NCBI RefSeq assembly: GCF_009734345.1
Contig: NZ_CP032551.1
Span: 120,001 to 152,000 of the forward strand
DNA length: 32,000 nt
Origin: Pseudidiomarina andamanensis
Lineage (GTDB): Bacteria > Pseudomonadota > Gammaproteobacteria > Enterobacterales > Alteromonadaceae
Direction: 5' to 3'
Under the pieces are notes generated by a model. That model saw only the letters and a list, made by a program, of their open reading frames with translations, was not told the DNA's origin and did not search any database. Every line of letters begins with the position of its first letter. The stretch's first letter is position 1. Shown piece after piece: positions 5,888-27,882 of the stretch. The translations under genes and the position numbers were made by a program.

Positions 5888-5896
5888 AATCGTTCC

Positions 5897-8258: not shown

Positions 8259-8373
8259 AGAATTCCTTTGTGATTTATTAAGTTGCTAAACATTTTAACG
8301 TGATTTAGTAGTGCTTGTGAATGCAGTGTTTAACAGTCTAGACTGGAAGTACGTATTAAAAGAGGATTTCGTT

Positions 8374-9339: not shown

Positions 9340-10440
9340 CACAGAAGGAAGCGGCTGAACTGTGGGCGCTTGGTCATGAAAACCAGGCAGCTCACAATGG
9401 TCTGCAGCAAACACAACTAAGTGGTCAAACTCTGCTCGTAAGCCAATATTGGCGCCAACGGTGAACTCTTCATGCGAAGGGCTTAAAGTTAGAATCTCGA
9501 TGCCGCTCGCAAGCTCAATGGTGTAAAGGTTGTGCGCACCACGAAAACCGCGGGCTTTAATGGTGCCACGCAAGCGCGAAGTTGGGTCAGGAACGAGGTC
9601 ATCAGGGCGGACGAGGAAGCTTACGGGTGTTCCAGCAGGAACTTGCAGCAAACTAGGGTGTTCAAGCATACCAAGTGGCGACGCCAACGACCCTTCCGTA
9701 TTCACTGTGCCTTGTAACAACACTCCGTGGCCAATAAAGTCAGCAACTAATTGATGTTTTGGTTGATGATATAGCTGATATGGGGTGTCCCACTGCAGCA
9801 ATTCACCTTGATACATAACACCGGCTTTGTCTGCCATGGCGAAGGCTTCTTGTTGATCATGCGTTACTAACAGCGCAGTAATGCCCTCTTTCTTCAGAAG
9901 CTCGCGCACTTCAACGGCGAGTCGTTCACGCAACTCGGCATCGAGACTTGAGAACGGTTCATCAAGTAACAGTAAGCGGGGTTTTGGCGCGAGTGCTCGC
10001 GCTAAGGCGATACGTTGCTGTTGGCCACCGGAAAGCTCGTGCGGGAAACGTTTGTGATAGCCCGGCAGACCAATGCGGTCGAGTAATTCGTCGACGCGCT
10101 TACGACGCTCGGAAGCGCTACTCTTGCGCATGCCAAAACTGATATTTTCTTCCACATTCAAGTGCGGGAACAAGGCAAAATCTTGAAACACCATACCAAC
10201 GCCGCGTTGCTCTGGTGCTAAGGTGTGTTTGTCATCGGATACGTTCGAGTCGTCGATACGAATTGAGCCTGACTGTAAGGCTTGAAAACCTGCAATAGCG
10301 CGTAACAAAGTCGTTTTTCCGCAGCCGCTTGGACCCAAAAGGCAACCAATTTCGCCTTGCTTGAGTTCAAAGGTTACACCACGAACAATGTGTAATGCAC
10401 CGAAGCTAATTTGAATGTTATCAAGCTGTAACCGGGACAA
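9316..10440 (-). CDS. ABC transporter ATP-binding protein, Fe(III)/polyamine importer type (FbpC/AfuC-like)
   Basis: Walker A GPSGCGKTT, signature LSGGQQQR and Walker B LLLLDEP, with a C-terminal regulatory/TOBE-like extension. The only available start is a TTG with AAGGAG 7 nt upstream. It overlaps the permease stop by 20 nt. Confidence 0.85.
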   Translation of the reverse strand: MSRLQLDNIQISFGALHIVRGVTFELKQGEIGCLLGPSGCGKTTLLRAIAGFQALQSGSIRIDDSNVSDDKHTLAPEQRGVGMVFQDFALFPHLNVEENISFGMRKSSASERRKRVDELLDRIGLPGYHKRFPHELSGGQQQRIALARALAPKPRLLLLDEPFSSLDAELRERLAVEVRELLKKEGITALLVTHDQQEAFAMADKAGVMYQGELLQWDTPYQLYHQPKHQLVADFIGHGVLLQGTVNTEGSLASPLGMLEHPSLLQVPAGTPVSFLVRPDDLVPDPTSRLRGTIKARGFRGAHNLYTIELASGIEILTLSPSHEEFTVGANIGLRAEFDHLVVFAADHCELPGFHDQAPTVQPLPSVLPKTQSA

Positions 10441-12091
10441 ACTCTTGCTCCTTTAATGCAGACTGCTGCGATTTTAACATAGCGCGAGACAATAAAATAA
10501 CAGGGATAAGCCCGACCAACACCATCATCAATGCGGGCGGTCCAGCATCGGCTAAGCGCTCGTCACCGGCCATTTCATAGGCGCGGACAGCGAGGGTGTT
10601 GAAGTCAAAAGGACGCAGTACCAAGGTTGCTGGCAACTCTTTCAATACGTCAACGCCAACTAAAATAAGTGCGGTGAGCACGCTCGGGCGTAACAGTGGT
10701 AAATGAATTTTACGCAACACCTGCATTGGCTTGTAGCCTTGAATGCGGGCTGCTTCGTCCATGCTCGGACGAATTTCTCCCAAGCCTGCTTGAATGGTTT
10801 GCAGCGAAACACTTAAAAACCGCACGCTGTAGGCAAACAGCAACGCAAATACGGTTCCGGATAATAACAATCCTGGATTCACACCGAACCAAGATTCGCT
10901 GAGTGCGATGATTACGTGGTCAATACTGGTAAGAAAAACCATTAAGCCAACTGCGATAACAAGGCCCGGAATGGCATAGCCTAGGCCTGCGAACGCAACG
11001 CTGGTGCGCACAACCTTGGTTGGAATTTGACGGCGACCATAGGCTAGCCATAGCGCCATGGTTACGACCAGCACAGCGGCAAGCACAGCAAGGCCAAAGC
11101 TATTCAGAGTTAGTTGCCAAAACGCACTATCTTGCCAAACTTCGCTGCGCTCAATTGACCAACTGGTTAGTTGTAACGCCGGTAGAATAAAGCCGAACAA
11201 TAATGGCAGCCAACAAGCAATGCTCGCGGCAATGGCTTTCCAGCCATGGAGTTGAAAAGGCGGTGCTGGACGATTGTTGCGTTGATCGTAGCGCGCTTGG
11301 CGACGTGACCAACGCTCGATGAAAATCAATAAAATGACAGCCACAAGCAGCATACCGGCTAGTTGTAAGGCGCCTTGCAAGTCACCCAGACCGTACCAGG
11401 TTCTGAATATGCCGGTGGTAAACGTTGTCACACCAAAGTACTGAACAGTGCCGTAATCGGCTAAGGTTTCCATCAATGCTAGCGTTGCGCCCGTCACAAT
11501 GGCAGGGCGAGCTAATGGCAACGCTAAGCGCAAGAAACATTGCCAAGGATTCAGTCCCAAACTGCGGCCTGCTTCGAGTGTTGTCGCCGATTGCTGGATA
11601 AATGTGGCGCGGGTGATGAGGTACACATACGGAAATAAGACTAGACTCAGCACCACAATCGCACCACTAAGGCTTCGAATTTCAGGGAACCAATAGTCAC
11701 CGTAACCCCAGCCGAACCAGTCGCGCAAGGTCGATTGCACAGGACCGGCAAAATCCAACATTCCGGTATAGGTGTAGGCAGTAATGTAGGCCGGCATTGC
11801 TAATGGCAGCAATAGAGCCCAACTAAGAATGCGCTGGCCAGGAAAGCGACAAGCGGTGGTTAGCCATGCGGTGCTGACACCAAGGGTGATCACGCCGGCG
11901 GCGACACCAATTAGTAATATAAATGAATGACGAATGTATTCGGGAACGACGGTGGCCCATAAGTGACTAAGCGTTGCGGTGTCATTACTCCAGATGAGTT
12001 GTAGCACCGACCAACAAATAACGAGCAACGGCACGCCGATAACGACGGCCGTTGCAATGAGTGTTAGTTGGCGCCACAAATTAAAGCGCAT
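10421..12091 (-). CDS. Fe(III) ABC transporter permease, duplicated two-module type (FbpB/AfuB-like)
   Basis: 556 aa with about 12 TM segments and two EAA-type loops (LEAGRSLGLNPWQCFLRLALPLARPA and MDEAARIQGYKPMQVLRKIHLPLLRPS). Its start overlaps the stop of the binding-protein gene (TAATG). Confidence 0.85.
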   Translation of the reverse strand: MRFNLWRQLTLIATAVVIGVPLLVICWSVLQLIWSNDTATLSHLWATVVPEYIRHSFILLIGVAAGVITLGVSTAWLTTACRFPGQRILSWALLLPLAMPAYITAYTYTGMLDFAGPVQSTLRDWFGWGYGDYWFPEIRSLSGAIVVLSLVLFPYVYLITRATFIQQSATTLEAGRSLGLNPWQCFLRLALPLARPAIVTGATLALMETLADYGTVQYFGVTTFTTGIFRTWYGLGDLQGALQLAGMLLVAVILLIFIERWSRRQARYDQRNNRPAPPFQLHGWKAIAASIACWLPLLFGFILPALQLTSWSIERSEVWQDSAFWQLTLNSFGLAVLAAVLVVTMALWLAYGRRQIPTKVVRTSVAFAGLGYAIPGLVIAVGLMVFLTSIDHVIIALSESWFGVNPGLLLSGTVFALLFAYSVRFLSVSLQTIQAGLGEIRPSMDEAARIQGYKPMQVLRKIHLPLLRPSVLTALILVGVDVLKELPATLVLRPFDFNTLAVRAYEMAGDERLADAGPPALMMVLVGLIPVILLSRAMLKSQQSALKEQEFVPVTA

Positions 12092-16183: not shown

Positions 16184-17362
16184 ATGGTTATTCATCCAAA
16201 AATTCGCGGATTTATTTGTACCAATGCACATCCAGTAGGCTGTGCTGCGCATGTGCAGCAGCAAATTGACTATGTGAAACAACAACCAGCTTTAACTGAT
16301 GTACCGAAACGCGTATTGGTGATTGGGTGTTCGACTGGATATGGATTAGCCACTCGCATCAATGCTGCATTTGGTGCTGGCGCGCAAACCTTAGGTGTTT
16401 GCTTCGAAAAAGAGCCAACTGAGAAGAAAACAGCAACGGCAGGGTGGTACAACACCGCAGCATTCCATAAAGCAGCCAAGAAAGAAGGCTTGTACGCGCA
16501 CACTATCAATGGCGATGCGTTCTCAAACGAAATCAAACAAGAAGTGATTGAGAAAATTAAACAAGATTTAGGTCAAGTTGACCTTGTTGTCTACAGCTTG
16601 GCATCGCCTAAACGCAAAGATCCAGTAACCGGTGACCTCTACAGTTCAACCCTGAAGCCAGTAGGGCAGGCGTATACCACAAAAACCTACAACACCGATA
16701 AAGACGAAGTTTCTGAAATTACTCTCGAGCCGGCAAACGATGATGAAATTCAACAAACCATCAAAGTCATGGGCGGCGAAGACTGGGAACTTTGGTTGGC
16801 CGCATTGCATGATGCTGGTGTGCTTGCTCCGAATGCAAAAACCACAGCATATACCTACATTGGCAAAAAACTAACATGGCCAATTTATGGTCACGCGACT
16901 ATCGGTAAAGCCAAAGAAGATCTTGATCGTGCAGCAGCTGCAATGCGTACCCGATATACCGACATTAATCTTGAAGCTTATGTTTCTTCGTTGAAGGCGT
17001 TAGTGACGCAAGCAAGTTCAGCAATACCGGTGATGCCTTTATATATCTCGCTCATCTATAAGGTGATGAAAGAAGAAGGTACCCATGAGGGATGTATTGA
17101 GCAAACACATCGCTTATTGCGCGACGCTCTGTATGCTGAGAATCCAGTACTGGATGAAGCCGGGCGTTTGTTCATGAATGGCTGGGAAACTAACGATCAA
17201 ACTCAAGCAAAAATTGAACAGCTCTGGAACCAAGTAACTCAAGACAACTTCCATCAGTTAGCTGATTATGCGGGTTATCACAGTGATTTCTTGCAGTTGT
17301 TCGGCTTTGGAATGGAAGGTGTTGATTATGACGCCGACGTAAACCCCGTCGTCACCTGGTAA
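16184..17362 (+). CDS. fabV: enoyl-[acyl-carrier-protein] reductase FabV (trans-2-enoyl-CoA reductase family)
   Basis: 392 aa. The N-terminus [20 protein letters not shown] matches the Vibrio FabV start ([20 protein letters not shown]). It also has the [11 protein letters not shown] nucleotide-binding loop, and the length is typical. Confidence 0.9.
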   Translation: [392 protein letters not shown]

Positions 17363-17519: not shown

Positions 17520-17632
17520 GCGCGCCCTAGGTGAAAATGGACAGAATTTGGTCAGTGTAGGCATTTAAACCTCCGTTTACATGCCTGCGCTGGAGTGAGA
17601 TTAATCTTCCCTAACGAGTAGTGCAAACGCGT

Positions 17633-18973
17633 ATGATTACGATCAAGAAAGGGCTGGATATCCCGATTTCGGGTGCGCCCCAGCAAACTATCGAGGATGG
17701 CCAAGCCATCACCACCGTTGCCGTACTGGGTGAAGAGTATGTGGGAATGCGTCCAACCATGCATGTCAAGGTTGAAGACCGCGTTAAAAAAGGCCAGGTA
17801 CTTTTCGAAGACAAGAAAAACCCAGGGGTTAAATTCACTGCACCTGCTGCGGGCGTTGTTAAAGACGTACTGCGTGGCGCAAAGCGTGTGTTGCAAGGCG
17901 TTGTCATTGAAATTGACGGCGATGAGCAAGAAACCTTTGCCAAATACGACAGTAACGAATTAGCTAGCCTTGATCGCGCGAAGGTCGTCGAGCAATTGAA
18001 CAACTCAGGTCAATGGGTTGCATTGCGGACACGTCCATTTAGCCGCTCTCCTAAGCTTGACGCAGAGCCTACCGCAATTTTTGTTAACGCAATGGATACC
18101 AATCCATTGGCCGCTGACCCAACCGTTATTATCAACGAACACAAACAAGCATTTATTGACGGTTTGAAAGTTCTTGGCAACTTGACCCAAGGCAATGTTT
18201 TTGTGGTTAAGGCAGCTGATGCTGAAGTTGATACTGGCGATGCCAAAGTACAACTCGAGAGCTTTGCAGGTCCGCATCCTGCTGGTTTAGTTGGTACGCA
18301 TATTCACTTCTTGCAGCCAGTTTCAATGGCCAAGCACGTGTGGCATATCGGTTACCAAGACGTGATTGCCTACGGTAAATTATTCACGACTGGTGAACTC
18401 TTCACTGACCGCGTTGTTGCATTAGGTGGCCCAAGTGCTAAGAAACCACGTTTATTACGTACGCGTTTGGGTGCAAACTTGCGTGAACTCACGAAAGGTG
18501 AATTAGCGCAAGGCAACAACCGTATCGTTTCTGGTTCGGTTTTAAATGGCCATAAAGTTGATGATGCGCACCAATGGTTAGGTCGTTTCCATAACCAAGT
18601 CAGCGTATTAGCTGAAGGTGATCAGAAAGAATTCTTTGGTTGGATCAAGCCAGGTGTTAACCAACACTCGGTAACACGTGCCTATCTTGGCCACTTGAGC
18701 CCGAAGAAATTGTTTTCGATGACTACTACCACCAACGGATCTGACCGTTCGATGGTTCCAATCGGCAACTATGAGCGCGTGATGCCGCTTGATATTTTGC
18801 CAACGATTTTGCTACGTGACTTGCTCTCTGGTGACACTGAACAAGCTCAGAAATTGGGCTGCTTGGAGTTAGATGAAGAGGATTTAGCGCTGTGTTCTTA
18901 TGTTTGCCCAGGCAAATACGAGTACGGTCCTGTGTTGCGTAACATGTTGACCGAAATTGAGAAAGAGGGCTGA
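17633..18973 (+). CDS. nqrA: Na+-translocating NADH:quinone oxidoreductase subunit A
   Basis: The ORF track starts at the GTG at 17621. The ATG at 17633 gives [16 protein letters not shown], the same start as Vibrio NqrA. It is collinear to the C-terminal [20 protein letters not shown]...IEKEG. Confidence 0.95.
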
Positions 18974-18975
18974 TC

Positions 18976-20175
18976 ATGGGCTTGAAAAGTTTTCTTGAGA
19001 ATATTGAGCCAAACTTCGAAAAAGGCGGCAAGTACGAGAAGTTCTATGCCTTATACGAAGCGGCTGCAACCATTTTCTATACGCCAGGTAAAGTAACCAA
19101 AGGCATTACCCACGTAAAAGACAGCGTTGATTTGAAGCGCATCATGATCTTGGTGTGGATGATGACGTTCCCAGCAATGTTCTGGGGTATGTATAACATC
19201 GGTAACCAAGCTGCGATGGCATTGGTTAACGGTTACGAGTTAGCTGACATTTGGCAAGTAGGCTTGTTTACTGCTCTCGGCGGTGATTTAAGCACTGCAG
19301 GTTGGGCCGGTAAATTATTCTACGGCGCTTGCTTCTTTGTTCCAGTTTACGCCACAACCTTTATTGTTGGTGGCTTCTGGGAAGTCTTGTTTGCCTCAAT
19401 TCGTAAGCACGAAATCAACGAAGGCTTCTTCGTTACTTCAGTATTGTTTGCGTTGACCCTGCCAGCAACCATGCCATTGTGGCAAGTTGCGTTGGGTATC
19501 ACCTTTGGTGTGGTGATTGGTAAAGAAATTTTCGGCGGTACTGGCCGTAACTTCTTGAACCCAGCACTAACTGGTCGTGCATTTTTATACTTCGCTTTCC
19601 CAGCGTCTATTTCTGGTGAGCAAGTATGGACTGCGGTTGACGGTTTCTCTGGCGCAACGTTGTTGGGTCAAGCAACTGCAAGCACCGACTACATTGCTGA
19701 CACTGCACTCTGGTGGGATGCCTTCTTAGGTAATATCCAAGGTTCGATGGGCGAAGTTTCAACCCTAATGATTCTTATCGGTGGCTTAGCACTTATTTAT
19801 TTCCGTATCGCTTCATGGCGCATCGTCTCTGGAGTGTTCGTTGGTATGGTGGCGTTGTCATTACTGTTCAATGTGATTGGCAGTGACACCAACCCAATGT
19901 TTGCAATGCCATGGTACTGGCACTTGGTAGTAGGTGGTTTTGCCTTCGGTATGATGTTTATGGCCACTGACCCAGTATCAGCGTCGTTCACCAACAAAGG
20001 TAAGTTCTATTACGGCTTCCTGATTGGCGCAATGACAGTACTTATCCGTGTGGTAAACCCTGCGTATCCAGAAGGTATTATGCTGGCAATTTTGTTCGCC
20101 AACGTATTTGCCCCGCTGTTTGACCACTTTGTTGTTCAATCAAACATTAAACGGAGAATGGCACGCAATGGCTAA
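18976..20175 (+). CDS. nqrB: Na+-NQR subunit B
   Basis: [19 protein letters not shown]..., collinear with Vibrio NqrB. It has the FMN-attachment motif GFSGATLLG and the C-terminus [23 protein letters not shown]. Confidence 0.95.
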
Positions 20176-20944
20176 TAAAAACGAATCACTCGGCAAAACG
20201 TTATTTGTCGTTGTCGCGCTCTGTTTAGTGTGCGCGGTAATCGTGGCAGGTTCTGCAGTTGGCTTGAAGCCTATTCAGCAAAAGAATGCTGCACTCGATA
20301 TGCAACGCAACGTGTTAGATGCAGCTGGTTTATTAACGCCTGAAACTGATGTGGTTGCGGTGTTTAATGACCGTGTTGATACACGTTTAATTAACTTGAA
20401 TACACTTGAAGAAGTTGAAACTGTTGACGGTAAATCAGCTACCGAATATGACCCAATCGCATCAGCGAAAAAAGCCGGTTTAGGTTCTAAGCTTGAAAAA
20501 AGTGAAGACGTAGCAGGTATTGGTGCACTGGAAAACGTTTCTAAAGTCTATTTTATTAACGATGAAAGCGGCGCATTAGAAACGGTTGTTGTTTACGTTC
20601 GTGGCTACGGTCTGTGGGGTACTATGTACGGTCTTATGGCTGTTGCACCTGACATGAACACCATCAAAGGTATCAACTTCTACGAGCACTCTGAAACTCC
20701 GGGTCTTGGTGGCGAAATTCAGAATCCTAATTGGACTGCAAGCTGGCAAGGCAAAGAAATTTATGAAAACGGCAGTGTCGCCATTGATGTGACAAAAAAT
20801 GTCACTGACAAAGCGCATGATATTGATGCACTTTCAGGCGCAACCCTAACCAGTAACGGTGTCGAGAACACGATGCAATTCTGGTTTAGCGATAAAGCTT
20901 ATGGCCCACTGTTCGATAAAATTCGCAAAGGGGAGCTGAACTAA
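20168..20944 (+). CDS. nqrC: Na+-NQR subunit C
   Basis: ATG at 20168 ([20 protein letters not shown], an N-terminal TM anchor) overlaps the nqrB stop by 8 nt. It has the FMN-attachment motif [12 protein letters not shown]. Confidence 0.9.
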
Positions 20945-21576
20945 TGGCGAGTGCAAAAGAAGTCAAAGAGGTTCTATTTGGACCGATTTTTGCCAACAAC
21001 CCGATTGCCCTACAAATTTTAGGTATCTGCTCGGCGTTGGCAGTCACTTCGAAAATGGAAAATACCGTGGTTATGTGTATTGCACTAACTTTGGTTACAG
21101 CGTTTTCGAACTTATTTATTTCAATTATTCGTAATCATATTCCGTCAAGCGTACGTATCATTGTACAAATGACCATTATCGCGAGCTTGGTTATTGTTGT
21201 TGACCAGGTGCTGCGGGCTTATGCTTACAGTATTGCAAAAGAATTGTCGGTATTCGTTGGTTTGATCATTACCAACTGTATCGTTATGGGTCGTGCTGAA
21301 GCTTATGCAATGAAGAGCCCACCAATGTTGTCGTTCCTAGATGGTATCGGTAACGGTTTGGGTTACTCAGTAGTGTTGTTGACCGTTGGTTTCATTCGTG
21401 AGCTATTCGGTTCTGGTAGCCTATTTGGCTATCAAATTTTACAGCTCGCTTCTGAGGGCGGTTGGTATCAACCAATCGGCTTGTTGGTATTGCCACCAAG
21501 CGCATTCTTCATTATCGGCGGCTTCATTTGGGTACTGCGTACCTTCCGCAAAGAACAAGTAGAGCCGAAGGAATAA
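20944..21576 (+). CDS. nqrD: Na+-NQR subunit D
   Basis: 210 aa polytopic protein. The conserved Cys pair is present in GICSALAV and ITNCIVMG. The start overlaps the nqrC stop (TAATG). Confidence 0.95.
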
Positions 21577-21586
21577 GGAGCAGACC

Positions 21587-22195
21587 ATGGAAGCCTATAT
21601 CAGTTTATTTATTAAATCGATTTTCGTTGAAAACTTAGCGTTATCGTTCTTCCTTGGTATGTGTACTTTCTTGGCGGTGTCTAAGAAAGTAACCACAGCT
21701 TTTGGTTTGGGCGTTGCGGTAATTGTTGTTCTGGGCATTTCGGTACCTGCTAACAACCTGGTTTATCACAACATTCTAGCGCCTGGCGCGTTAGATTGGG
21801 CTGGTTTCCCAGACGCAGACTTAAGTTTCTTACGTTTCTTGACCTTTATCGGCGTGATTGCAGCGTTGGTACAGATTCTTGAAATGGCACTCGACAAATA
21901 CGTTCCTGCTTTATACAACGCGTTAGGTATCTTCTTACCGTTGATTACTGTGAACTGCGCAATCTTTGGTGGCGTATCATTCATGGTAGAGCGTGATTAC
22001 ACTTTCTCGGAGAGTGTGGTTTACGGTATTGGCGGCGGCGTAGGCTGGGCGTTAGCGATTGTTGCTTTGGCAGCGGTACGCGAGAAGCTGAAATATGCAG
22101 ACGTGCCAGATGGATTACGTGGCTTGGGCATCACCTTTATGACGGTGGGTCTGATTGGTTTAGGGTTTATGTCTTTCTCAGGCATTTCACTCTAA
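21587..22195 (+). CDS. nqrE: Na+-NQR subunit E
   Basis: 202 aa polytopic protein, with the conserved Cys pair in GMCTFLAV and TVNCAIFG. Confidence 0.95.
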
Positions 22196-22242
22196 TTTCA
22201 TCCGGTTACGAACGATAACGTATTAAGTAGAGGTACAAGTCG

Positions 22243-23484
22243 ATGCAAGGGCAAGATTTGACACTAATAGCGCTCGGCGTAGGCATGTTTACCTTGATTG
22301 TATTGATTTTGGTTGCGGTGATTATGTTCGCTAAATCAAAATTGGTCCCTCAGGGTGATGTCGAGATTTTAATTAACGATGACGAAGACAAGAAAATTAC
22401 CACCCAACCGGGCACGAAGTTGCTTGGCGCACTAGCTAACGCGGGTATTTTCGTATCGTCAGCGTGTGGTGGCGGTGGCTCATGTGGCCAGTGCCGTGTG
22501 GTGATCAAAGAAGGTGGCGGTGAGATTCTGCCAACTGAGCGTGACCACATTAACCGCAAAGAAGCACGTGAAGGTTGCCGTTTATCTTGTCAGGTAAACG
22601 TGAAGCAAAATATGAAAATCGAACTTCCAGAGGAAGTATTCGGTATTCGTAAGTGGGATTGTACGGTTAAATCGAACAATAACGTTGCCACCTTCATTAA
22701 AGAATTTGTGGTGCAATTGCCAGAAGGCGAGGAAGTTCCATTCCGCGCTGGTGGTTACATTCAAATTGAATGCCCACCGCACCATGTGAAATTTAAAGAT
22801 TTCGACATTGAAGAAAAATTCCGTGGCGATTGGGAACACTTCGGCTTCTTTAACCTTGAGTCAAAAGTTAACGAAGAAGTTATTCGTGCTTACTCGATGG
22901 CGAATTACCCAGATGAGAAAGGCATCATCATGTTGAACGTGCGTATCGCTACGCCGCCTCCGCGTGATATGAGCTTGCCACCAGGTCAAATGTCGTCATA
23001 CATCTTTAGCTTGAAGCCAGGCGATAAAGTGACGATTTCTGGTCCATTTGGTGAATTCTTCGCGAAAGATACCAAAGCTGAGATGGTGTTTGTTGGTGGT
23101 GGTGCTGGTATGGCGCCGATGCGCTCACACATCTTCGACCAATTACGTCGCTTGAAATCTGACCGTAAGATGACGTTCTGGTACGGTGCTCGTTCTAAGA
23201 AAGAAATGTTCTATGTTGAAGATTTCGATATGTTGGCTCGTGAAAACGACAACTTCGAATGGCACGTGGCACTATCTGACCCACAACCAGAAGATAACTG
23301 GGAAGGGTACACCGGCTTTATTCACAATGTATTGTTCGAGAACTATCTGAAGGACCACGAAGCGCCTGAAGATTGTGAGTTCTACATGTGTGGACCACCG
23401 ATGATGAACGCTGCAGTCATAAAAATGTTGAAAGACTTAGGCGTCGAAGACGAGAACATCTTGTTGGATGACTTCGGTGGCTAA
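22243..23484 (+). CDS. nqrF: Na+-NQR subunit F (2Fe-2S ferredoxin / FAD / NADH domain)
   Basis: N-terminal TM helix, the 2Fe-2S motif [15 protein letters not shown], the FAD motif RAYSMANYP, the NADH motif [11 protein letters not shown] and the C-terminus ILLDDFGG. Collinear with Vibrio NqrF. Confidence 0.95.
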
Positions 23485-23518
23485 CCGTAACGGTTAACTG
23501 TAAGGTGAAATAAAACGG

Positions 23519-24541
23519 ATGAAGATGAATTTGTCATCGACTCTGCGAATTTGGCTAGCCCTGATAGGGCTGGCCTTTTTCGTTTCATGTACGCCGGCAC
23601 CGCAACAAATTTCAGTGTCGGGCGAAACCATGGGCACGACCTACCATATCCGCTATGTCACGGCGAACCCAAATCATTCGCCGGAACGCGTGAAAGAGCG
23701 GGTTGATGCAGTGTTAGAGCAAGTGAATAGCCAGATGTCGACTTATGATCCGAACTCTGAGTTATCGCTGTTTAATCAACGCAAAACAACAGAGCCCGTG
23801 GTTGTATCGCGTTCGTTAGAGACAGTTGTTCGCCGTGCACTTGAAGTTGGTGAAGAAACCAATGGATTATTAGATGTCACGGTTGGTCCGCTAGTTAATT
23901 TGTGGGGCTTTGGTCCTTTAGGTCGACCTGAACAAGTACCTTCTGAGCAGCAATTGCAGGAAGTTCGTGATCAGATTGGCTATCAATATTTGACGGTAGA
24001 AAATCACCAGTTAACGAAGGCTATTCCTGATTTGTATGTCGATTTGTCGACCATTGCGAAAGGTTACGGTGTTGACCGTGTTGCGATTTTGCTTGAGCAA
24101 ATGGAAATCAAAAATTACTTGGTGGAAATTGGTGGTGAAATGCGCATGCGTGGTACCAAGCCGGGTGAGCAACCTTGGCGGATTGCTGTTGAGCAGCCGG
24201 TATCTTTAGAGCGTGCGGTTCAACGCATTATCGAGCCGGGTAACAACGCTGTGGCGACCTCAGGTGATTATCGCAACTACTTCGAAGAAGATGGCGTGCG
24301 TTACTCGCATATTATCGATCCTCGTACAGGGTATCCAATTCAGCACAACTTAGTTTCGGTAACAGTGATAACAGACACGTGTATGGATGCCGATGCTTAC
24401 GCAACGGCATTGACGGTTATGGGCGCTGAAGAGGCACTTGAGTTCGCGAATAAAAAAGGTTTAGCGGTACTTTTAGTGACCCGTGAAAACGATCAATTTA
24501 AAGAGTACACTAGTACTGCATTCAAACGATTTGAGCAGTAG
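23519..24541 (+). CDS. apbE: FAD:protein FMN transferase ApbE (lipoprotein)
   Basis: 340 aa with a lipobox-type signal (LAFFVSCTP). ApbE blocks are present: GETMGTTYHI, DLSTIAKGYGVD, TSGDYRNYFE..G.RYSHIIDPRTG.P and DADAYATAL. It occupies the canonical position after nqrF. Confidence 0.9.
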   Translation: MKMNLSSTLRIWLALIGLAFFVSCTPAPQQISVSGETMGTTYHIRYVTANPNHSPERVKERVDAVLEQVNSQMSTYDPNSELSLFNQRKTTEPVVVSRSLETVVRRALEVGEETNGLLDVTVGPLVNLWGFGPLGRPEQVPSEQQLQEVRDQIGYQYLTVENHQLTKAIPDLYVDLSTIAKGYGVDRVAILLEQMEIKNYLVEIGGEMRMRGTKPGEQPWRIAVEQPVSLERAVQRIIEPGNNAVATSGDYRNYFEEDGVRYSHIIDPRTGYPIQHNLVSVTVITDTCMDADAYATALTVMGAEEALEFANKKGLAVLLVTRENDQFKEYTSTAFKRFEQ

Positions 24542-24555
24542 CTCAGGAGGTCCAC

Positions 24556-24786
24556 ATGGGCGTTTTTATTGCTGTATTCGTCATCATGTTGGTGGTGGTA
24601 TTAGCTATGTCGGTGGGTTTCATCGCCCAACGCAAATCTATTTCCGGTAGCTGTGGCGGTATCTCGTCATTAGGCATGGAAAAGGCTTGCGACTGCAAAG
24701 ATCCGTGCGATGATAAGAAAGCGCGCATGGCTGAAGAAGCTCGAGCTGCGAAAGAAAAGCAGTGGCAGGAAAATCGAATCGATTAA
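24556..24786 (+). CDS. nqrM: Na+-NQR maturation protein NqrM (DUF539)
   Basis: 76 aa with AGGAGG upstream. It has one N-terminal TM helix followed by the four-Cys pattern SGSCGG...CDCKDPC, in the canonical position after apbE. Confidence 0.8.
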   Translation: MGVFIAVFVIMLVVVLAMSVGFIAQRKSISGSCGGISSLGMEKACDCKDPCDDKKARMAEEARAAKEKQWQENRID

Positions 24787-24804
24787 AGTGAAGGAGTTAA
24801 ACTG

Positions 24805-26952
24805 ATGGTTACACCGGTACAAATTCGCCCGAAAACGGCTGAAATTTACCTTGATTGCAACGCAACAACACCGGTGTTACCTCAGATAGCTCAAGCTGTT
24901 GAACACGTGATGGAACATGTGTTCGGAAACCCTTCCAGTAGTCATATTACCGGCCTTCAGGCTCGCTATATTCTCGACAATACACGTCGACTCGGACGCC
25001 AAGTCATTGGCGCACCGCGCGGACGCGTGTTCTTTACCAGCGGTGCTACCGAAGGTATTCAAACTGCTGTTTTGTCTGCCTTAACTGCTGCACGGAATAG
25101 CACGAACTTAGGCGGTAAACGCTGGTTACTCTATGGCGCGACCGAGCACAAAGCCGTGCCGCAAGCGCTTGAGCACTGGAATAAATTACTGCAACTGAAT
25201 GCTGAATTGAAACCGATACCCGTAGATAAACGCGGTAAGCTAGATCTGCAGTTTATCGCGGAGCATGTTGGTGCCGCGCATATGATCTGTACTATGGCCG
25301 TGAATAATGAAACGGGTGTGATGCAAGATCTAAAAGCCTTAGAGGACGTAATTCGCGCTGAAAATACGACCGTGCCGTGGATGGTTGACTGTGTTCAAGC
25401 ACTCGGGAAGCAATCGCTTCAGCTCAGCGAGACAACCATTGATTATGCACCTTTTAGTGGCCACAAACTTTATGGCCCTAAAGGCATTGGTTTTATGTAT
25501 GTTCGTGAAAGTGCGCCGTTTACACCATTGATTATTGGTGGTGGTCAGGAACAGGGGCAACGTTCAGGAACTGAAAACCTTCCAGGCATAGCGGCTTTAC
25601 ACGCGCTGTTTGAGTTGTTGTTAAATAATGAGCAGCAAGTTTTTCAGAGCCACGCAGTGCTTGAAGAATATCGGGAAAAATTACTGAACGCATTGCGTAG
25701 TGTATTTCCAACCTTGGTGCTGAACCATGAGCTTGCGGATTCAGTGCCAACCACGTTGAATTTCTCAGTGCGAGGTGTGCCGTCGCGCGACATTATGGAC
25801 GTGTTCGATGCGGCAAATATTCGTGTCAGCTCTGGTTCGGCGTGTAGCTCTGGCGTTACCCGAAGTTTCGTTCTTGATGCAATGGGTTTGGAGGCGTGGC
25901 GCTCTAGTTCAGCCATTCGTCTTTCATTCGGTCCTGCCACTTCAGCGGCTACCATTGATGCTGCGTGCGCACGCATTCGTGATGCGGCAATGGCATTAAG
26001 ACAATCTTGTCTATTAGTTTCTGATACCAATGAAGATGTTGATAGCAACCTTGATGGGGTCGTTCAACTTCGCTTTGATAGCCACTGTTGCTATTTACTT
26101 ATTGATAAAGCTGCCGGTGAAATGGCAGTGATTGATCCAGTTCCTGAGCTAGCTGAACGCATTGAACGATTAGTAGCGTGCCAGAATTATCGTGTGAAAG
26201 CCGTATTGACCACCGAAGCACAAGCGCCTGACAGCCCTGCAGCGATGCTCGCCCAGTTGCTATGTGCCAGTGGATGCAGTGCGCAGCGAGACGCGGTTGG
26301 CTGGCCATTAGATGCGGTTGGTGGATGCGAAGCGCCCGTTGAATGCCAAGTTGAGGTGTTCGGATGTCTGCGGGTCGGTAAACGTCGCTTATACCGTGTT
26401 GGTACGAGAGAACCATTGTTTTTATTAAGTTCACCGCTGATTGACGATGCATCGACGCCCCATGTTGATTTCGCGTTTATTGGCGAGCAAGACGACGTTG
26501 CGCAATTGATGAAAGCGGTACATGAGCAAACCCTCTTGCTTGCTCGTCGTGATGATGCGTTTCGAGTCGTTGAGAAGCTATGTGAAGTTTCAGGTGACTG
26601 TGTGCCGTGCCAGCTTATTGATGTATCGCTGGAACAACAGCAAGAGTGGTTGGCGCAGCCAGAAACCTTAGTCGTTGATGTGCGTGAGCAACAAGAGCAT
26701 CAAGTACGTCAACTATCGGTTGATGCAGAAGTGATCAATGTACCATTAACGCGCTTAGCTCAATTTATTTACAGCCATCGCGCGCAGTATAAACAACGCC
26801 CAATTGTTTGTGTGTGTCGTTCGGGCCACCGCAGTGCAGTTGCCGCGCAAGTGTTAGCGCGACACGGATTCGAACAAGTGAGCCACTTATCTGGCGGTAC
26901 TGCATTACTCATTGAAGCTGATGCGCGCGACAAAGCCATCTTTGCCAACTAA
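24805..26952 (+). CDS. three-domain protein: class-V (NifS/IscS-like) cysteine desulfurase, degenerate MBL/persulfide-dioxygenase-like middle domain, catalytic rhodanese domain
   Basis: 715 aa with GAAGGAG upstream, 18 nt after the nqrM stop. N-terminal domain: LDCNATTP, FTSGATEGIQ, the PLP-Lys motif FSGHKLYGPKG (Lys codon 25465-25467), RSGTENLPGIAAL and the persulfide loop SSGSACSSG (Cys codon 25843-25845). Middle domain, about aa 415-600: CCYLLIDKAAGEMAVIDPVPE...VKAVLTTEAQAPDS resembles the ETHE1/MBL N-terminal strand-loop pattern but has no HxHxDH. C-terminal domain: rhodanese with the active-site loop CRSGHRS (Cys codon 26815-26817). Confidence 0.8.
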   Translation: MVTPVQIRPKTAEIYLDCNATTPVLPQIAQAVEHVMEHVFGNPSSSHITGLQARYILDNTRRLGRQVIGAPRGRVFFTSGATEGIQTAVLSALTAARNSTNLGGKRWLLYGATEHKAVPQALEHWNKLLQLNAELKPIPVDKRGKLDLQFIAEHVGAAHMICTMAVNNETGVMQDLKALEDVIRAENTTVPWMVDCVQALGKQSLQLSETTIDYAPFSGHKLYGPKGIGFMYVRESAPFTPLIIGGGQEQGQRSGTENLPGIAALHALFELLLNNEQQVFQSHAVLEEYREKLLNALRSVFPTLVLNHELADSVPTTLNFSVRGVPSRDIMDVFDAANIRVSSGSACSSGVTRSFVLDAMGLEAWRSSSAIRLSFGPATSAATIDAACARIRDAAMALRQSCLLVSDTNEDVDSNLDGVVQLRFDSHCCYLLIDKAAGEMAVIDPVPELAERIERLVACQNYRVKAVLTTEAQAPDSPAAMLAQLLCASGCSAQRDAVGWPLDAVGGCEAPVECQVEVFGCLRVGKRRLYRVGTREPLFLLSSPLIDDASTPHVDFAFIGEQDDVAQLMKAVHEQTLLLARRDDAFRVVEKLCEVSGDCVPCQLIDVSLEQQQEWLAQPETLVVDVREQQEHQVRQLSVDAEVINVPLTRLAQFIYSHRAQYKQRPIVCVCRSGHRSAVAAQVLARHGFEQVSHLSGGTALLIEADARDKAIFAN

Positions 26953-27882
26953 ATAACAGCGTTGATTGATACAGGCGCTGTTCCAAATGTTTGCATCGCT
27001 CAATTGCTTCCAAGTCATATCGGCGCTGTTAAGATAAGCAGCGCCATTCGGGTTACTCACTAACATATCGCCGTTTGGGCGAACCGTTAAGCTGTAAAGT
27101 GCACCGTTAAACTCAGGCTCGGGCAGGGCGGCAAACTCGCCGTTTTGATACCGCATAAGTCGCGGAACTGCGGCGGGATCATTTAAATCACCACCAGCAA
27201 TAATTACATCGTTTTCAGCAAGTGGCCAAACGCTCGCAATACCGGCGCTAGGCCCAGCTGGCAGTGGCGTATCAATGGCTTTGAAACGAATACCAAAATT
27301 ACGTTTTACTAATAATCGAGCTTTACTGCTATTGGCGGTGCCAATGGCCCAGACATTGTTGTTAAAGCGTACACAACCGCCACTGGCAGCTAACCCGCCC
27401 TCATCGGGCAATGGCGCACTATCTACCACATTACTTGCCGATAACCAGTTGCGTCCGTCGGTGCTGCGTACCATTTCCCAGCGGCCTTCAAGACTATCGC
27501 CATATACCCAAGCTTCACCGCTATTCGCCATGGCGATGCAGTTAAGAAATTGATTCGAACCCGCACGATAGCGAAGTTGCCAATTGCGTCCGCCATTCGA
27601 AGTGTAATAAACGCGCGAGTCACCATTTTCGCCAATACTTAAGGCGTAGGCGTGGTTCGCATCAAGCGCTTCAATGTCGCGAAACTGCAGGCTTTCGTTG
27701 GCGGGATTAAAGTACTCCCATGTATCGCCAGCATCGGTGCTGCGAGCAATTGTTGCATTCGAGCCGCTCATCCAGACAACATTGTTGGTTGGTGCGCTAA
27801 CACCAATCCAATGCACGTCGGGCTTACTCTCTAAAGAGGTAACACTTATTGCCGTTGCAACAACCAAACTTACCGCAATCAT
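26905..27882 (-). CDS. BNR/Asp-box beta-propeller protein (Ycf48-like), secreted or membrane-anchored
   Basis: 325 aa with ACGAGG upstream and a hydrophobic N-terminus, MIAVSLVVATAISV. It has an Asp-box STDAGDTW plus degenerate repeats TSNGGRNW and STDGRNW. It lies 68 nt downstream of copA on the same strand, and its 3' end overlaps the convergent 24805..26952 gene by 48 nt. Confidence 0.6.
   Translation of the reverse strand: MIAVSLVVATAISVTSLESKPDVHWIGVSAPTNNVVWMSGSNATIARSTDAGDTWEYFNPANESLQFRDIEALDANHAYALSIGENGDSRVYYTSNGGRNWQLRYRAGSNQFLNCIAMANSGEAWVYGDSLEGRWEMVRSTDGRNWLSASNVVDSAPLPDEGGLAASGGCVRFNNNVWAIGTANSSKARLLVKRNFGIRFKAIDTPLPAGPSAGIASVWPLAENDVIIAGGDLNDPAAVPRLMRYQNGEFAALPEPEFNGALYSLTVRPNGDMLVSNPNGAAYLNSADMTWKQLSDANIWNSACINQRCYLVGKDGFVARISFNE

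What the first reader, a model, noticed from the sequence alone, without database searches (positions are those of the whole stretch)
24805..26952. Unusual three-domain sulfur-relay protein: cysteine desulfurase, MBL-like domain without metal ligands, rhodanese
The N-terminal 400 aa or so have every hallmark of a group-I NifS/IscS enzyme: PLP lysine in SGHK, RSGTEN, and the persulfide Cys in SSGSACSS. The C-terminal 100 aa or so are a rhodanese with an intact CRSGHRS catalytic loop. One polypeptide therefore carries both a persulfide-forming Cys (aa 347) and a persulfide-accepting Cys (aa 671). The linker of about 190 aa resembles the fold-initiating pattern of ETHE1-type persulfide dioxygenases and MBLs (..YLL.D...GE.AVIDPV.E......L......VK.VL.T). 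Where HxHxDH should be it reads TEAQAPDS, and the later PGHT and GD ligand positions are also substituted (VGTREP, IGEQDD). It looks like a pseudoenzyme scaffold derived from a PDO-rhodanese fusion. I do not recognise this architecture as a characterised protein.
Basis: partly seen in the sequence, partly recalled or inferred. Interest (0 to 1): 0.65.

Follow-up and report, generated by a model that had tools for sequence, protein, structure and literature searches.

The report
Cysteine desulfurase–dead PDO–rhodanese fusion protein
This gene encodes a sulfur-handling enzyme of three fused parts whose middle part, once an iron-dependent persulfide dioxygenase, has lost its whole active site but is still conserved; it belongs to a little-studied bacterial family in which this loss seems to have happened repeatedly.

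Summary
ORF 24805-26952 (+) encodes 715 aa. It has an intact class-I NifS/IscS-type cysteine desulfurase (K221, C347) and an intact rhodanese (C671 in CRSGHRS). Between them lies a 208-aa domain that Pfam cannot name.

The pseudoenzyme reading is supported. The domain is homologous (hhalign 99.9 %, E 3e-34) to an intact type-I persulfide dioxygenase (PDO) domain at the same position in relatives from Shewanella, Colwellia and Pseudoalteromonas. Its AlphaFold model best matches solved PDO-rhodanese fusions (BpPRF, CstB).

In the window all three Fe ligands are gone: His to E471, PGHT deleted, Asp to E561. The GRTDF substrate loop, HDY and a family-specific Cys-Gly segment are lost too. The domain is still under strong purifying selection (dN/dS 0.02-0.05).

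The loss is shared by all Idiomarinaceae. Comparable losses probably recurred about 8-10 times, for example in Undibacterium. The two catalytic cysteines are always kept.

Most likely function is a cysteine-to-persulfide relay (C347 to C671) on a dead-PDO scaffold, with no oxidation. The acceptor is unknown. In Idiomarinaceae only, the gene follows nqrA-F-apbE-nqrM.

I found no published characterisation of the family. I rate it a new variant of known kinds, of moderate interest.

The parts
24805..26952 (+). Whole ORF, 715 aa plus stop: three-domain cysteine desulfurase / degenerate PDO / rhodanese protein
24790..24796 (+). GAAGGAG ribosome-binding site, 8 nt before the ATG
   Evidence: sequence read directly
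24805..26004 (+). Class-I (NifS/IscS-type) cysteine desulfurase domain, aa 1-400. H115, D195, Q198, K221, R372 and the C347 loop are all conserved.
   Evidence: Pfam Aminotran_5 E 2.9e-58. NCBIfam NifS/DndA/IscS models match but below their equivalog cut-offs. PDB 1ecx E 1e-55. Foldseek 1ecx TMt 0.90. Residues checked.
25465..25467 (+). Codon of K221 (SGHK), the PLP-binding lysine
25828..25851 (+). SSGSACSS loop (aa 342-349) with the persulfide-forming C347. pLDDT is low at 347-349 in the full-length model, as expected for a mobile loop.
26008..26010 (+). Codon of C402 ('SCL'), a junction cysteine conserved in at least 98 % of family members
26014..26637 (+). Degenerate type-I persulfide dioxygenase (MBL-fold) domain, aa 404-611
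   Evidence: hhalign 99.9 %, E 3.3e-34 against intact domains. AF2 model pLDDT 89. Foldseek BpPRF, CstB, ETHE1. dN/dS 0.02-0.05.
26209..26235 (+). TTEAQAPDS (aa 469-477), the remnant of DTHxHxDH. The first His (Fe ligand) is E471, the second His is Q473, Asp is P475 and the last His is D476.
26398..26415 (+). VGTREP (aa 532-537), the site where the PGHT motif (second Fe-ligand His) is deleted between G533 and T534
26476..26490 (+). FIGEQ (aa 558-562). The Fe-ligand Asp of 'GD' is E561 here and varies within the clade. It is followed by an approximately 20-aa deletion that removes the GRTDF/GRTNF substrate loop.
26545..26559 (+). RRDDA (aa 581-585), the remnant of xHDY. H is R582, D583 is kept (invariant in the 20-sequence alignment A1), and Y is D584. 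Downstream, an approximately 46-aa segment carrying the family's Cys-Gly motif is deleted.
26326..26367 (+). Idiomarinaceae-specific cysteine triad C508-x5-C514-x6-C521
   Evidence: Each of the three positions is Cys in 71-94 % of Pseudidiomarina and Idiomarina sequences and in 0-3 % of other clades. All three are present in 45 of 56 Idiomarinaceae sequences; the segment is deleted in 5.
26638..26913 (+). Rhodanese domain, aa 612-703
   Evidence: Pfam E 4.3e-10. The closest solved rhodanese domains are those of persulfide reductase 6pfz and BpPRF 5ve3.
26815..26835 (+). CRSGHRS active-site loop (aa 671-677) with the persulfide-accepting C671
24556..24786 (+). nqrM (76 aa), directly upstream: its stop codon ends at 24786 and the gene's ATG is at 24805. 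It is the last gene of the nqrA-F/apbE/nqrM cluster (17621-24786).
   Evidence: Pfam PF04400 E 2.6e-20. nqr and apbE identified. Same arrangement in all 24 Idiomarinaceae loci.

Best explanation
The gene encodes a member of an uncharacterised three-domain family: a class-I NifS/IscS-like cysteine desulfurase, a type-I (ETHE1-like) persulfide dioxygenase, and a rhodanese. In the window's lineage (Pseudidiomarina, and all Idiomarinaceae examined) the dioxygenase domain is catalytically dead.

Shown: the domain has lost the 2-His-1-Asp iron triad, the GRTDF substrate loop, the HDY motif and the family-specific Cys-Gly segment. It keeps a folded MBL core under strong purifying selection.

Inferred mechanism: the PLP domain converts L-cysteine to L-alanine and loads a persulfide on C347 of its mobile loop. 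The sulfane sulfur passes, in cis or across a dimer, to C671 of the rhodanese. The dead PDO domain holds the rhodanese in place as a rigid spacer or docking module. C671-SSH then hands the sulfur to an acceptor that is still unknown. Unlike relatives that keep the ligands, this protein cannot oxidise the persulfide with O2 to sulfite or thiosulfate. It therefore conserves reduced sulfane sulfur for transfer instead of disposing of it.
For: Domains and catalytic residues are intact at both ends.

The middle domain is homologous to intact PDO domains: hhalign 99.9 %, E 3.3e-34. The intact profile hits MxPDO 4ysb (2e-32), AtETHE1 2gcu, BpPRF (7e-25) and hETHE1 (4e-24), ahead of glyoxalase II. AF2 of aa 400-715 gives pLDDT 89 and pTM 0.87, with best Foldseek matches BpPRF, 3tp9, CstB and ETHE1.

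The ligand map is E471, PGHT deleted, E561, with the GRTDF, HDY and CG elements lost. The triad definition comes from CstB (H56/H119/D145; PMC12934615).

dN/dS for four unsaturated Idiomarinaceae pairs: middle domain 0.021-0.051, desulfurase 0.018-0.038, rhodanese 0.010-0.043.

The full-length model has pTM 0.81 with low pLDDT only at the C347 loop, the 408-411 linker and the termini.

Across 16 dead and 11 live representatives the desulfurase residues and the rhodanese active-site cysteine are kept while PDO ligands come and go.
Against: There is no biochemical evidence; activity, metal content and sulfur transfer are all inferred. I could not read model coordinates, so the C347-C671 distance and the cis-or-trans route are unknown.

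Strong constraint plus 12 cysteines in the middle domain, including a clade-specific triad, could mean it does more than scaffold.

The AF2 alignment contained intact homologues, which may pull the model towards the MBL fold. TM-scores to single-domain PDOs are only about 0.5.

No conserved gene partner across clades points to an acceptor.
Confidence: 0.62

Rival explanations
1. Neofunctionalised middle domain. The dead PDO domain is not an inert spacer. It has gained a cysteine-based function, such as a Zn or Fe-S site, or a polysulfide-carrying or relay station between C347 and C671. The candidate residues are the Idiomarinaceae-specific cysteines (C429, C508, C514, C521, C593, C599; plus C487, C491, C602 in Pseudidiomarina) together with the family-wide C402, C428 and C459.
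For: The middle domain has 12 Cys in 211 aa against 5 in the 400-aa desulfurase. Each triad position is Cys in 71-94 % of sequences in both genera and in 0-3 % elsewhere. omega is as low as in the catalytic domains. CstB sets a precedent for a mobile cysteine inside a PDO domain carrying sulfur to the rhodanese (PMC12934615).
Against: Five Idiomarinaceae lineages have deleted the triad segment entirely, and C593/C599/C602 are variable, so these cysteines are not essential to the clade's function. The middle domain is also Cys-rich in live relatives (median 8). Spatial clustering could not be tested.
Confidence: 0.2
2. Dedicated Na+-NQR maturation factor. In Idiomarinaceae the protein has been recruited to the nqr operon as the sulfur donor for the NQR [2Fe-2S] clusters. 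These are in NqrF and the intramembrane NqrD/E cluster, whose insertion needs NqrM.
For: The gene starts just downstream of nqrM on the same strand (stop ends 24786, ATG at 24805), with no promoter-like or terminator-like site between them. The order fabV-nqrA-F-apbE-nqrM-gene holds in all 24 Idiomarinaceae loci, with a gap of 12-182 nt. NqrM is required for insertion of the intramembrane [2Fe-2S], and apbE and nqrM are co-transcribed with nqrA-F in V. cholerae (review PMC12174285).
Against: None of the roughly 56 loci outside Idiomarinaceae has nqr within 10 kb, so the linkage reflects a single rearrangement in one family. As far as I know, other NQR-containing bacteria have no dedicated desulfurase. 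No paper links NqrM with a cysteine desulfurase.
Confidence: 0.12
3. The middle domain is still a metal-dependent oxidase using substitute carboxylate ligands (E471, D476, E561, D583, D584).
For: Acidic residues occupy several former ligand positions in the window protein. D583 is invariant in the 20-sequence family alignment A1.
Against: These replacements are not conserved even within Idiomarinaceae. Position 471 is E/Q/V/A/G and position 561 is D/E/T/S/K/A. The PGHT His, the GRTDF loop and the CG segment are physically deleted.
Confidence: 0.03
4. The middle region is a decaying remnant or linker, or the whole gene is a pseudogene in progress, or the region is not MBL-related at all.
For: There is no Pfam hit. 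The region alone found no homologues in the word-index search. It evolves faster than the flanking domains: 33-46 % identity against about 70 % between genera.
Against: omega is 0.02-0.05. The ORF is intact in all 24 Idiomarinaceae genomes examined. The AF2 fold is confident. hhalign gives 99.9 %. Foldseek probability is 1.0 to PDO-rhodanese fusions.
Confidence: 0.02

Closest known systems
BpPRF, the persulfide dioxygenase-rhodanese fusion of Burkholderia phytofirmans (PDB 5ve3/5ve4/5ve5)
   Same: It has the same PDO-then-rhodanese order. It is the best Foldseek match to the aa 400-715 model (E 3e-12). Its rhodanese is among the closest solved ones. About 50 two-domain proteins of this type (300-480 aa) appear in the deep search; apart from a few that look like fragments of three-domain proteins, they are the nearest relatives outside the family.
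   Different: BpPRF has an active Fe site and no desulfurase domain. The window protein has an N-terminal desulfurase, no Fe ligands, and three deletions in the PDO domain.
CstB of Staphylococcus aureus (PDO, pseudo-rhodanese, rhodanese; PDB 3r2u)
   Same: It is a multidomain PDO-sulfurtransferase, it already contains a catalytically dead domain used structurally, and it moves sulfur between a PDO-domain cysteine and the rhodanese cysteine (PMC12934615). It is a Foldseek hit at E 6e-7. Ligand-bearing members of the present family carry a conserved Cys-Gly that recalls CstB's C201-G202 glutathione mimic.
   Different: In CstB the PDO is alive and the dead domain is a rhodanese; here it is the reverse. 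CstB has no desulfurase. The family's Cys-Gly lies in a different segment, C-terminal to HDY, and is deleted in the window protein. Its role is untested.
Human ETHE1 and bacterial type-I PDOs (4chl, 4ysb, 2gcu)
   Same: The MBL fold is homologous, and the intact middle domains of relatives match these best. An Idiomarinaceae-only profile still picks ETHE1 first.
   Different: The iron triad, GRTDF and HDY are missing in the window protein, so it cannot be filed as a PDO.
IscS/NifS class-I cysteine desulfurases and their persulfide relays to rhodanese-type acceptors (IscS-ThiI; A. vinelandii desulfurases to RhdA)
   Same: The PLP chemistry is the same, the cysteine loop is long and mobile (GSAC), and sulfur goes to a rhodanese cysteine. 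The relay logic matches. The IscS-ThiI relay is from my own knowledge; the RhdA work is cited in PMC9163753.
   Different: Here donor and acceptor are fused in one chain through a dead enzyme domain. The desulfurase scores well below the NifS and IscS equivalog cut-offs (266 against 531 bits and 212 against 643 bits), and the family forms its own long-stemmed clade.
Eukaryotic Moco sulfurase ABA3/MOCOS (NifS-like domain fused to an acceptor domain)
   Same: It is a precedent for a cysteine desulfurase fused in cis to the domain that receives its persulfide (from my own knowledge).
   Different: The acceptor there is a MOSC-type Moco-binding domain, not a rhodanese, and there is no dead enzyme spacer. 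The weak MOSC Pfam hit here (E 0.07-0.12) is below threshold and I disregard it.

Membership tests
Class-I (NifS/IscS-type) cysteine desulfurase | Fold-type I aminotransferase class V domain | tested here: met
   Pfam Aminotran_5 E 2.9e-58 over aa 14-386. Foldseek 1ecx TMt 0.90.
Class-I (NifS/IscS-type) cysteine desulfurase | PLP lysine, plus the His, Asp, Gln and Arg that hold PLP and substrate | tested here: met
   K221 (SGHK), H115 (TEHK), D195/Q198 (VDCVQ) and R372 are invariant in alignment A1 and in all distant representatives.
Class-I (NifS/IscS-type) cysteine desulfurase | Catalytic Cys on the long class-I loop (SSGSAC-S/T-S) | tested here: met
   C347 in SSGSACSS. The GSACSS core was found in all 120 relatives plus the window, and GSAC in nearly all deep-search representatives checked.
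Class-I (NifS/IscS-type) cysteine desulfurase | Equivalog-level match to NifS, IscS or DndA | tested here: not met
   TIGR03402 266 bits against a cut-off of 531; TIGR02006 212 against 643; TIGR03235 227 against 480. It is a distinct subfamily.
Class-I (NifS/IscS-type) cysteine desulfurase | Cysteine desulfurase activity | not testable with these tools
   Needs an enzyme assay.
Type-I persulfide dioxygenase (ETHE1-like) | MBL alpha-beta/beta-alpha fold homologous to ETHE1 | tested here: met
   hhalign 99.9 % against intact family domains. Foldseek hETHE1, MxPDO and AtETHE1 at probability 1.0, TMt about 0.5.
Type-I persulfide dioxygenase (ETHE1-like) | 2-His-1-Asp Fe(II) facial triad (first His of HxHxDH, His of PGHT, Asp of GD) | tested here: not met
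   E471, PGHT deleted, E561. The triad is as defined for CstB; for hETHE1 (H79/H135/D154) I rely on my own knowledge.
Type-I persulfide dioxygenase (ETHE1-like) | Substrate-binding GRTDF loop and HDY motif | tested here: not met
   GRTDF lies within an approximately 20-aa deletion, and HDY reads RDD.
Rhodanese sulfurtransferase | Rhodanese fold with the catalytic Cys at the start of a six-residue loop (C-R-S-G-x-R) | tested here: met
   Pfam E 4.3e-10. CRSGHRS at 671-677. The loop is conserved in 119 of 120 relatives.
PDO-rhodanese fusion proteins (PRF/CstB type) | PDO domain followed by an active rhodanese in one chain | tested here: met
   Domain order and Foldseek coverage of both domains in BpPRF.
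PDO-rhodanese fusion proteins (PRF/CstB type) | Catalytically competent PDO domain coupled to the rhodanese | tested here: not met
   The ligands are lost. The protein descends from this kind but is not a functional member.
Three-domain desulfurase-PDO-rhodanese family (uncharacterised; annotated only as 'aminotransferase class V-fold PLP-dependent enzyme') | Collinear full-length homology across all three domains | tested here: met
   Identity is 44-97 % over at least 96 % of the query for most of the 120 listed hits. 80 genome loci were retrieved. The family is monophyletic against IscS.
nqr operon accessory genes (apbE, nqrM) | Conserved linkage to nqrA-F across taxa | tested here: not met
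   Linked in 24 of 24 Idiomarinaceae loci and in none of the roughly 56 other loci.

The most novel reading that the evidence does not exclude
The ligand-bearing members of this family are self-contained machines that turn cysteine into thiosulfate or sulfite. The desulfurase loads a persulfide onto a tethered Cys-Gly, a built-in glutathione mimic like C201-G202 of CstB. That persulfide is oxidised at the Fe site and passed to the rhodanese. In Idiomarinaceae the oxidase half was switched off and the remaining desulfurase-rhodanese relay was recruited to the nqr operon. There it works with NqrM as the dedicated sulfur donor for the intramembrane [2Fe-2S] cluster of Na+-NQR.
Probability: 0.08. 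Interest if true: 0.8.

Novelty: new variant of a known kind. Interest (0 to 1): 0.55.

Why it matters
All three domains belong to well-studied kinds. Their fusion does not appear in the searchable literature, and public annotation gives it only a generic name.

The family offers two things. First, the live members predict a route from cysteine to oxidised sulfur that never releases a free persulfide. This is directly testable against the recently proposed self-sulfonation mechanism of CstB. Second, the PDO active site appears to have been lost in some 8-10 separate lineages (unsupported NJ tree) while the two catalytic cysteines and the fold are kept under strong selection. That is a ready-made natural experiment on what a dead enzyme domain contributes to a sulfur relay.

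The Idiomarinaceae-specific placement behind nqrM also gives a cheap genetic test of whether Na+-NQR Fe-S maturation can use a dedicated sulfur donor.

Tried and rejected
(1) Pfam on the middle region alone gave only a sub-threshold MOSC hit (E 0.07), which I disregard.

(2) phmmer of the middle region against PDB sequences found nothing meaningful.

(3) The word-index homologue search with the middle region alone gave no hits. It needed the full-length query.

(4) The search for related loci with the mid+rhodanese alignment A4 failed because no stretch was conserved enough. Alignment A1 worked.

(5) I looked for a conserved gene partner outside Idiomarinaceae. Only clade-specific neighbours turned up: iscX in Thalassotalea/Thalassomonas, and a GntR-family (FadR-like) regulator, a DsbB-like protein and a putative ECF sigma/anti-sigma pair (my reading of the sequences, not scanned) in the Rheinheimera group. 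Nothing is family-wide.

(6) My first regex classification of the deep-search representatives was unreliable. I replaced it with local HMMs and hmmalign.

(7) Foldseek with the full-length model returned only single-domain desulfurases.

(8) One tree script got no answer from the machine and was rerun in simpler form.

(9) dN/dS for more distant pairs was saturated (dS undefined), so only four close pairs are usable.

(10) I could not measure Cys-Cys distances because model coordinates are not exposed.

(11) The pseudogene/decaying-linker idea and the substitute-ligand idea were considered and rejected; see the rival explanations.
Full report
**1.

The window has an ATG-initiated ORF at 24805..26952 on the + strand, encoding 715 aa. 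A GAAGGAG ribosome-binding site lies 8 nt upstream. Pfam finds Aminotran_5 at aa 14-386 (E 2.9e-58) and Rhodanese at aa 610-699 (E 4.3e-10). It finds nothing significant between them.

NCBIfam places the N-terminal domain nearest NifS, DndA and IscS, but far below their equivalog cut-offs (266 against 531 bits for NifS). PDB sequence search gives the T. maritima NifS-like protein 1ecx (E 1e-55) and E. coli IscS.

**2. What the middle domain is**

On its own the middle region is nearly invisible to sequence tools. It gets no Pfam hit, no PDB hit and no word-index homologues.

The full-length protein finds a coherent family. Orthologues at 56-97 % identity come from Pseudidiomarina and Idiomarina (676-720 aa). 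Collinear relatives at 44-47 % identity come from Thalassotalea, Thalassomonas, Colwellia, Shewanella, Parashewanella and Pseudoalteromonas (756-774 aa). Many of the latter carry a Pfam Lactamase_B hit, for example P0110 at E 3e-8 over aa 423-569.

In a 20-sequence alignment the window's middle region aligns column for column with that MBL domain. In Shewanella, Colwellia and Pseudoalteromonas the domain reads DTHGHADH ... TPGHT ... FCGDT ... GRTNF ... SHDY.

An Idiomarinaceae-only profile (A2) against an intact-only profile (A3) gives hhalign probability 99.9 %, E 3.3e-34 over 178 columns. The intact profile hits solved persulfide dioxygenases first: MxPDO 4ysb (2e-32), AtETHE1 2gcu, BpPRF 5ve3/4 (7e-25), hETHE1 4chl (4e-24) and CstB 3r2u. 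Glyoxalase II scores much lower, at 1e-15 to 1e-12. This makes it a type-I PDO in the classification used in PMC5702731. The Idiomarinaceae profile alone still ranks hETHE1 first, at only E 0.045.

An AlphaFold2 model of aa 400-715 is confident (pLDDT 89, pTM 0.87). Its best Foldseek matches in the PDB are the PDO-rhodanese fusion BpPRF (E 3e-12, both domains aligned), the MBL-rhodanese protein 3tp9 and CstB. Single-domain ETHE1/PDOs follow, at probability 1.0 and TMt about 0.5. One caveat: the alignment used for the model included intact homologues.

**3. What was lost**

Using the family alignment:
- The first His of HxHxDH, the Fe ligand, is E471. The rest of that motif reads A-Q-A-P-D.
- The PGHT motif, carrying the second Fe-ligand His, is deleted between G533 and T534.
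- The Asp of 'GD', the third ligand, is E561. This position is D/E/T/S/K/A across the clade.
- About 20 aa after it are deleted, including the GRTDF/GRTNF substrate loop.
- HDY reads R582-D583-D584.
- About 46 aa of the C-terminal helical segment are deleted.

The triad definition follows the CstB structures (H56/H119/D145; PMC12934615). For hETHE1 (H79/H135/D154) it rests on my own knowledge.

The deleted C-terminal segment carries a 'CG' motif. That motif is present in 97 % of the 64 non-Idiomarinaceae relatives and in most of the distant ligand-bearing three-domain representatives. The corresponding columns are empty in the stand-alone two-domain PDO-rhodanese proteins listed. In CstB a mobile Cys-Gly (C201-G202) is a tethered glutathione mimic that is persulfidated, oxidised at the iron and carried to the rhodanese. 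The family's CG may play that role, but this is an untested inference. Its loss together with the ligands fits complete abandonment of dioxygenase chemistry.

**4. The dead domain is maintained**

Between Pseudidiomarina and Idiomarina the middle domain keeps 33-46 % identity. The desulfurase keeps about 70 % and the rhodanese 51-59 %.

For the four sequence pairs with unsaturated dS, Nei-Gojobori dN/dS is 0.021-0.051 for the middle domain, 0.018-0.038 for the desulfurase and 0.010-0.043 for the rhodanese. The ORF is intact in all 24 Idiomarinaceae genomes examined. The pseudogene and decaying-linker ideas are therefore rejected.

The full-length model has pLDDT 84 and pTM 0.81. Confidence is low at the C347 loop, the 408-411 linker and the termini. 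That is what one expects for a mobile persulfide-carrying loop on an otherwise rigid three-domain body. No solved structure spans the three domains.

**5. Distribution and direction of change**

A scan of one genome per species found at least 593 related stretches. The best 80 are all full-length three-domain loci. They come from Pseudidiomarina, Idiomarina, Thalassotalea, Thalassomonas, Colwellia, Psychrobium, Shewanella, Pseudoalteromonas, Paraglaciecola, Rheinheimera, Alkalimonas, Arsukibacterium and Alishewanella. The closest is P. tainanensis PIN1 at 92 %, so the window is a Pseudidiomarina.

All Idiomarinaceae copies lack all of the ligand motifs apart from isolated chance matches. Nearly all other copies keep GD and HDY, and usually at least the first His. 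Several of those clades have HxHx(E/D)(Q/R) instead of HxHxDH. Because only the first His of that motif is an Fe ligand in this PDO type, those may still be active.

On an NJ tree rooted with E. coli IscS, Idiomarinaceae form one clade among ligand-bearing clades. I read this as a single derived loss.

A profile search of 1.84 billion cluster representatives found 111 hits at E <= 1e-30. Local HMM analysis recognised 46 representatives with desulfurase, PDO and rhodanese, including fragments. About 12 are full-length and live. About 13 further full-length clusters are dead or partly dead. The next group is 50 two-domain PDO-rhodanese proteins of 300-480 aa, most of them the BpPRF type and the nearest outgroup.

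The named dead ones are betaproteobacterial: Undibacterium and a Burkholderiales MAG. One of them has His replaced by Tyr at the conserved His positions: THGYVDY, PGYT, TYDC.

On a second NJ tree the dead lineages are interspersed among live ones, suggesting roughly 8-10 independent losses (no support values). Every dead and live lineague keeps TEHK, VDxVQ, SGHK, the GSAC loop, R372 and the rhodanese active-site cysteine. The desulfurase-rhodanese pair is the invariant core. The dioxygenase is the dispensable part.

**6. Genomic context**

In the window the gene is the last in a same-strand run:
- fabV (16184-17362)
- nqrA-F (17621-23484)
- apbE (23519-24541)
- nqrM (24556-24786; PF04400, E 2.6e-20)

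The gene's ATG at 24805 follows the nqrM stop codon, which ends at 24786. No sigma-70-like promoter or terminator-like site lies between them.

A convergent BNR/Ycf48-like gene (26905-27882, minus strand) overlaps the last 48 nt. A CopA-type ATPase follows.

The arrangement from fabV to the BNR gene is the same in 24 of 24 Idiomarinaceae loci, with nqrM 12-182 nt upstream. None of the roughly 56 other loci has nqr within 10 kb.

Elsewhere the context is clade-specific. An iscX homologue lies directly downstream in Thalassotalea and Thalassomonas. A GntR-family (FadR-like) regulator, a DsbB-like protein and a putative ECF sigma/anti-sigma pair flank the gene in the Rheinheimera group; those three names are my reading of the sequences, not scanned against a library. 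The gene stands alone in Shewanella.

NqrM is thought to be needed for insertion of the intramembrane [2Fe-2S] of Na+-NQR (PMC12174285), so the adjacency is suggestive. However, it reflects one rearrangement in one family. I treat an NQR-maturation role as a minority hypothesis.

**7. How it most likely works**

Shown:
- intact PLP-desulfurase and rhodanese active sites
- a folded, constrained but ligand-less PDO domain between them
- descent from a live three-domain ancestor

Inferred: L-Cys is converted to L-Ala plus C347-SSH. The sulfane sulfur moves to C671. It then goes to an unidentified acceptor, with no O2-dependent oxidation. The dead domain acts as spacer or docking module.

An added function for the cysteine-rich middle domain cannot be excluded. 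It has 12 Cys. A C508/C514/C521 triad is present in 45 of 56 Idiomarinaceae sequences and essentially absent in other clades. However, the triad segment is deleted in five Idiomarinaceae lineages.

**8. Comparison and novelty**

The closest known systems are BpPRF and CstB (PDO-rhodanese fusions), type-I PDOs, IscS/NifS with their rhodanese-type acceptors, and ABA3-type desulfurase fusions.

The window protein passes the membership tests for class-I desulfurase and for rhodanese. It fails the catalytic tests for PDO, so it is a PDO homologue and not a PDO.

Full-text searches found no paper describing a desulfurase-PDO-rhodanese fusion, a PDO pseudoenzyme, or a link between NqrM and a desulfurase. 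Sources name these proteins only 'aminotransferase class V-fold PLP-dependent enzyme' or 'cysteine desulfurase'.

I rate it a new variant of known kinds. It is an uncharacterised fusion family, and this is one of its apparently recurrent dead-PDO forms. Interest is moderate at 0.55. The parts are familiar, but the architecture, the likely recurrent loss and the nqrM adjacency give clear, cheap experiments.

Noticed in passing
window 24556-24786 (+): A 76-aa ORF with one TM helix and a Cys-rich tail is NqrM (PF04400, E 2.6e-20). It falls below the default ORF length filter and got no NCBIfam hit at E <= 1e-5. It completes an nqrA-F/apbE/nqrM cluster directly upstream of the gene.
   Followed up: yes
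window 26326-26367 (aa 508-521); also aa 429, 487, 491, 593, 599, 602: Idiomarinaceae-specific conserved cysteines in the dead PDO domain, notably the triad C508-x5-C514-x6-C521. The triad is present in 45 of 56 clade members, essentially absent elsewhere, and its segment is deleted in 5 lineages. This could be a metal, Fe-S or relay site. Spatial clustering could not be checked.
   Followed up: partly
relatives: P0110 aa 648-652 'LCGAY' and the equivalent columns in P0122-P0147: A Cys-Gly motif C-terminal to HDY is conserved in ligand-bearing three-domain proteins. The columns are empty in the stand-alone two-domain PDO-rhodanese proteins listed, and the segment is deleted in Idiomarinaceae. 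It recalls the C201-G202 tethered glutathione mimic of CstB.
   Followed up: partly
L003 12486-12698; also L029, L030, L038, L039, L046, L054: In Thalassotalea and Thalassomonas an iscX (PF04384) homologue lies roughly 150-400 nt downstream of the three-domain gene, away from any isc operon. In E. coli, IscX is an IscS-binding protein (my own knowledge).
   Followed up: partly
window 26905-27882 (-): A convergent 325-aa BNR/Ycf48-like beta-propeller gene overlaps the last 48 nt of the three-domain ORF. The overlapped tail (aa 703-715) is unconserved and has low pLDDT. The neighbour is syntenic in all 24 Idiomarinaceae loci. Its function is unknown.
   Followed up: partly
proteins P0149, P0162 (Undibacterium), P0168 (Burkholderiales MAG), P0093 (Thalassotalea-like metagenomic sequence), P0152-P0241: Further dead-PDO three-domain proteins occur outside Idiomarinaceae. 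P0168 has His replaced by Tyr at the conserved His positions (THGYVDY, PGYT, TYDC). This suggests about 8-10 independent losses on an unsupported NJ tree.
   Followed up: partly
protein P0244 (886 aa): One representative has the permuted order PDO, rhodanese, then a desulfurase-like segment, with an intact PDO. It may be an independent fusion or a mis-assembly.
   Followed up: no
protein P0032 (598 aa, Pseudidiomarina terrestris): This is an orthologue that lacks the rhodanese domain and the CRSG loop. It may be truncated, frameshifted or a gene-calling artefact.
   Followed up: no
window 5414-6370 (-): Two tandem 157-aa ferritin-like genes. Further along are a CorA-like transporter gene (8311-9339) and two genes of an ABC transporter (9316-12091). 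These are ordinary metal-homeostasis genes.
   Followed up: no
L035-L083 motif column: Several clades (Thalassotalea, Rheinheimera, Alkalimonas, some Pseudoalteromonas) carry HxHx(E/D)(Q/R) in place of HxHxDH while keeping the first His together with GD and HDY (PGHT is kept in Thalassotalea and some Rheinheimera but not matched in the other clades). Only the half of the motif that is not an Fe ligand in PDOs has drifted, which is as expected if they remain mononuclear Fe enzymes.
   Followed up: partly
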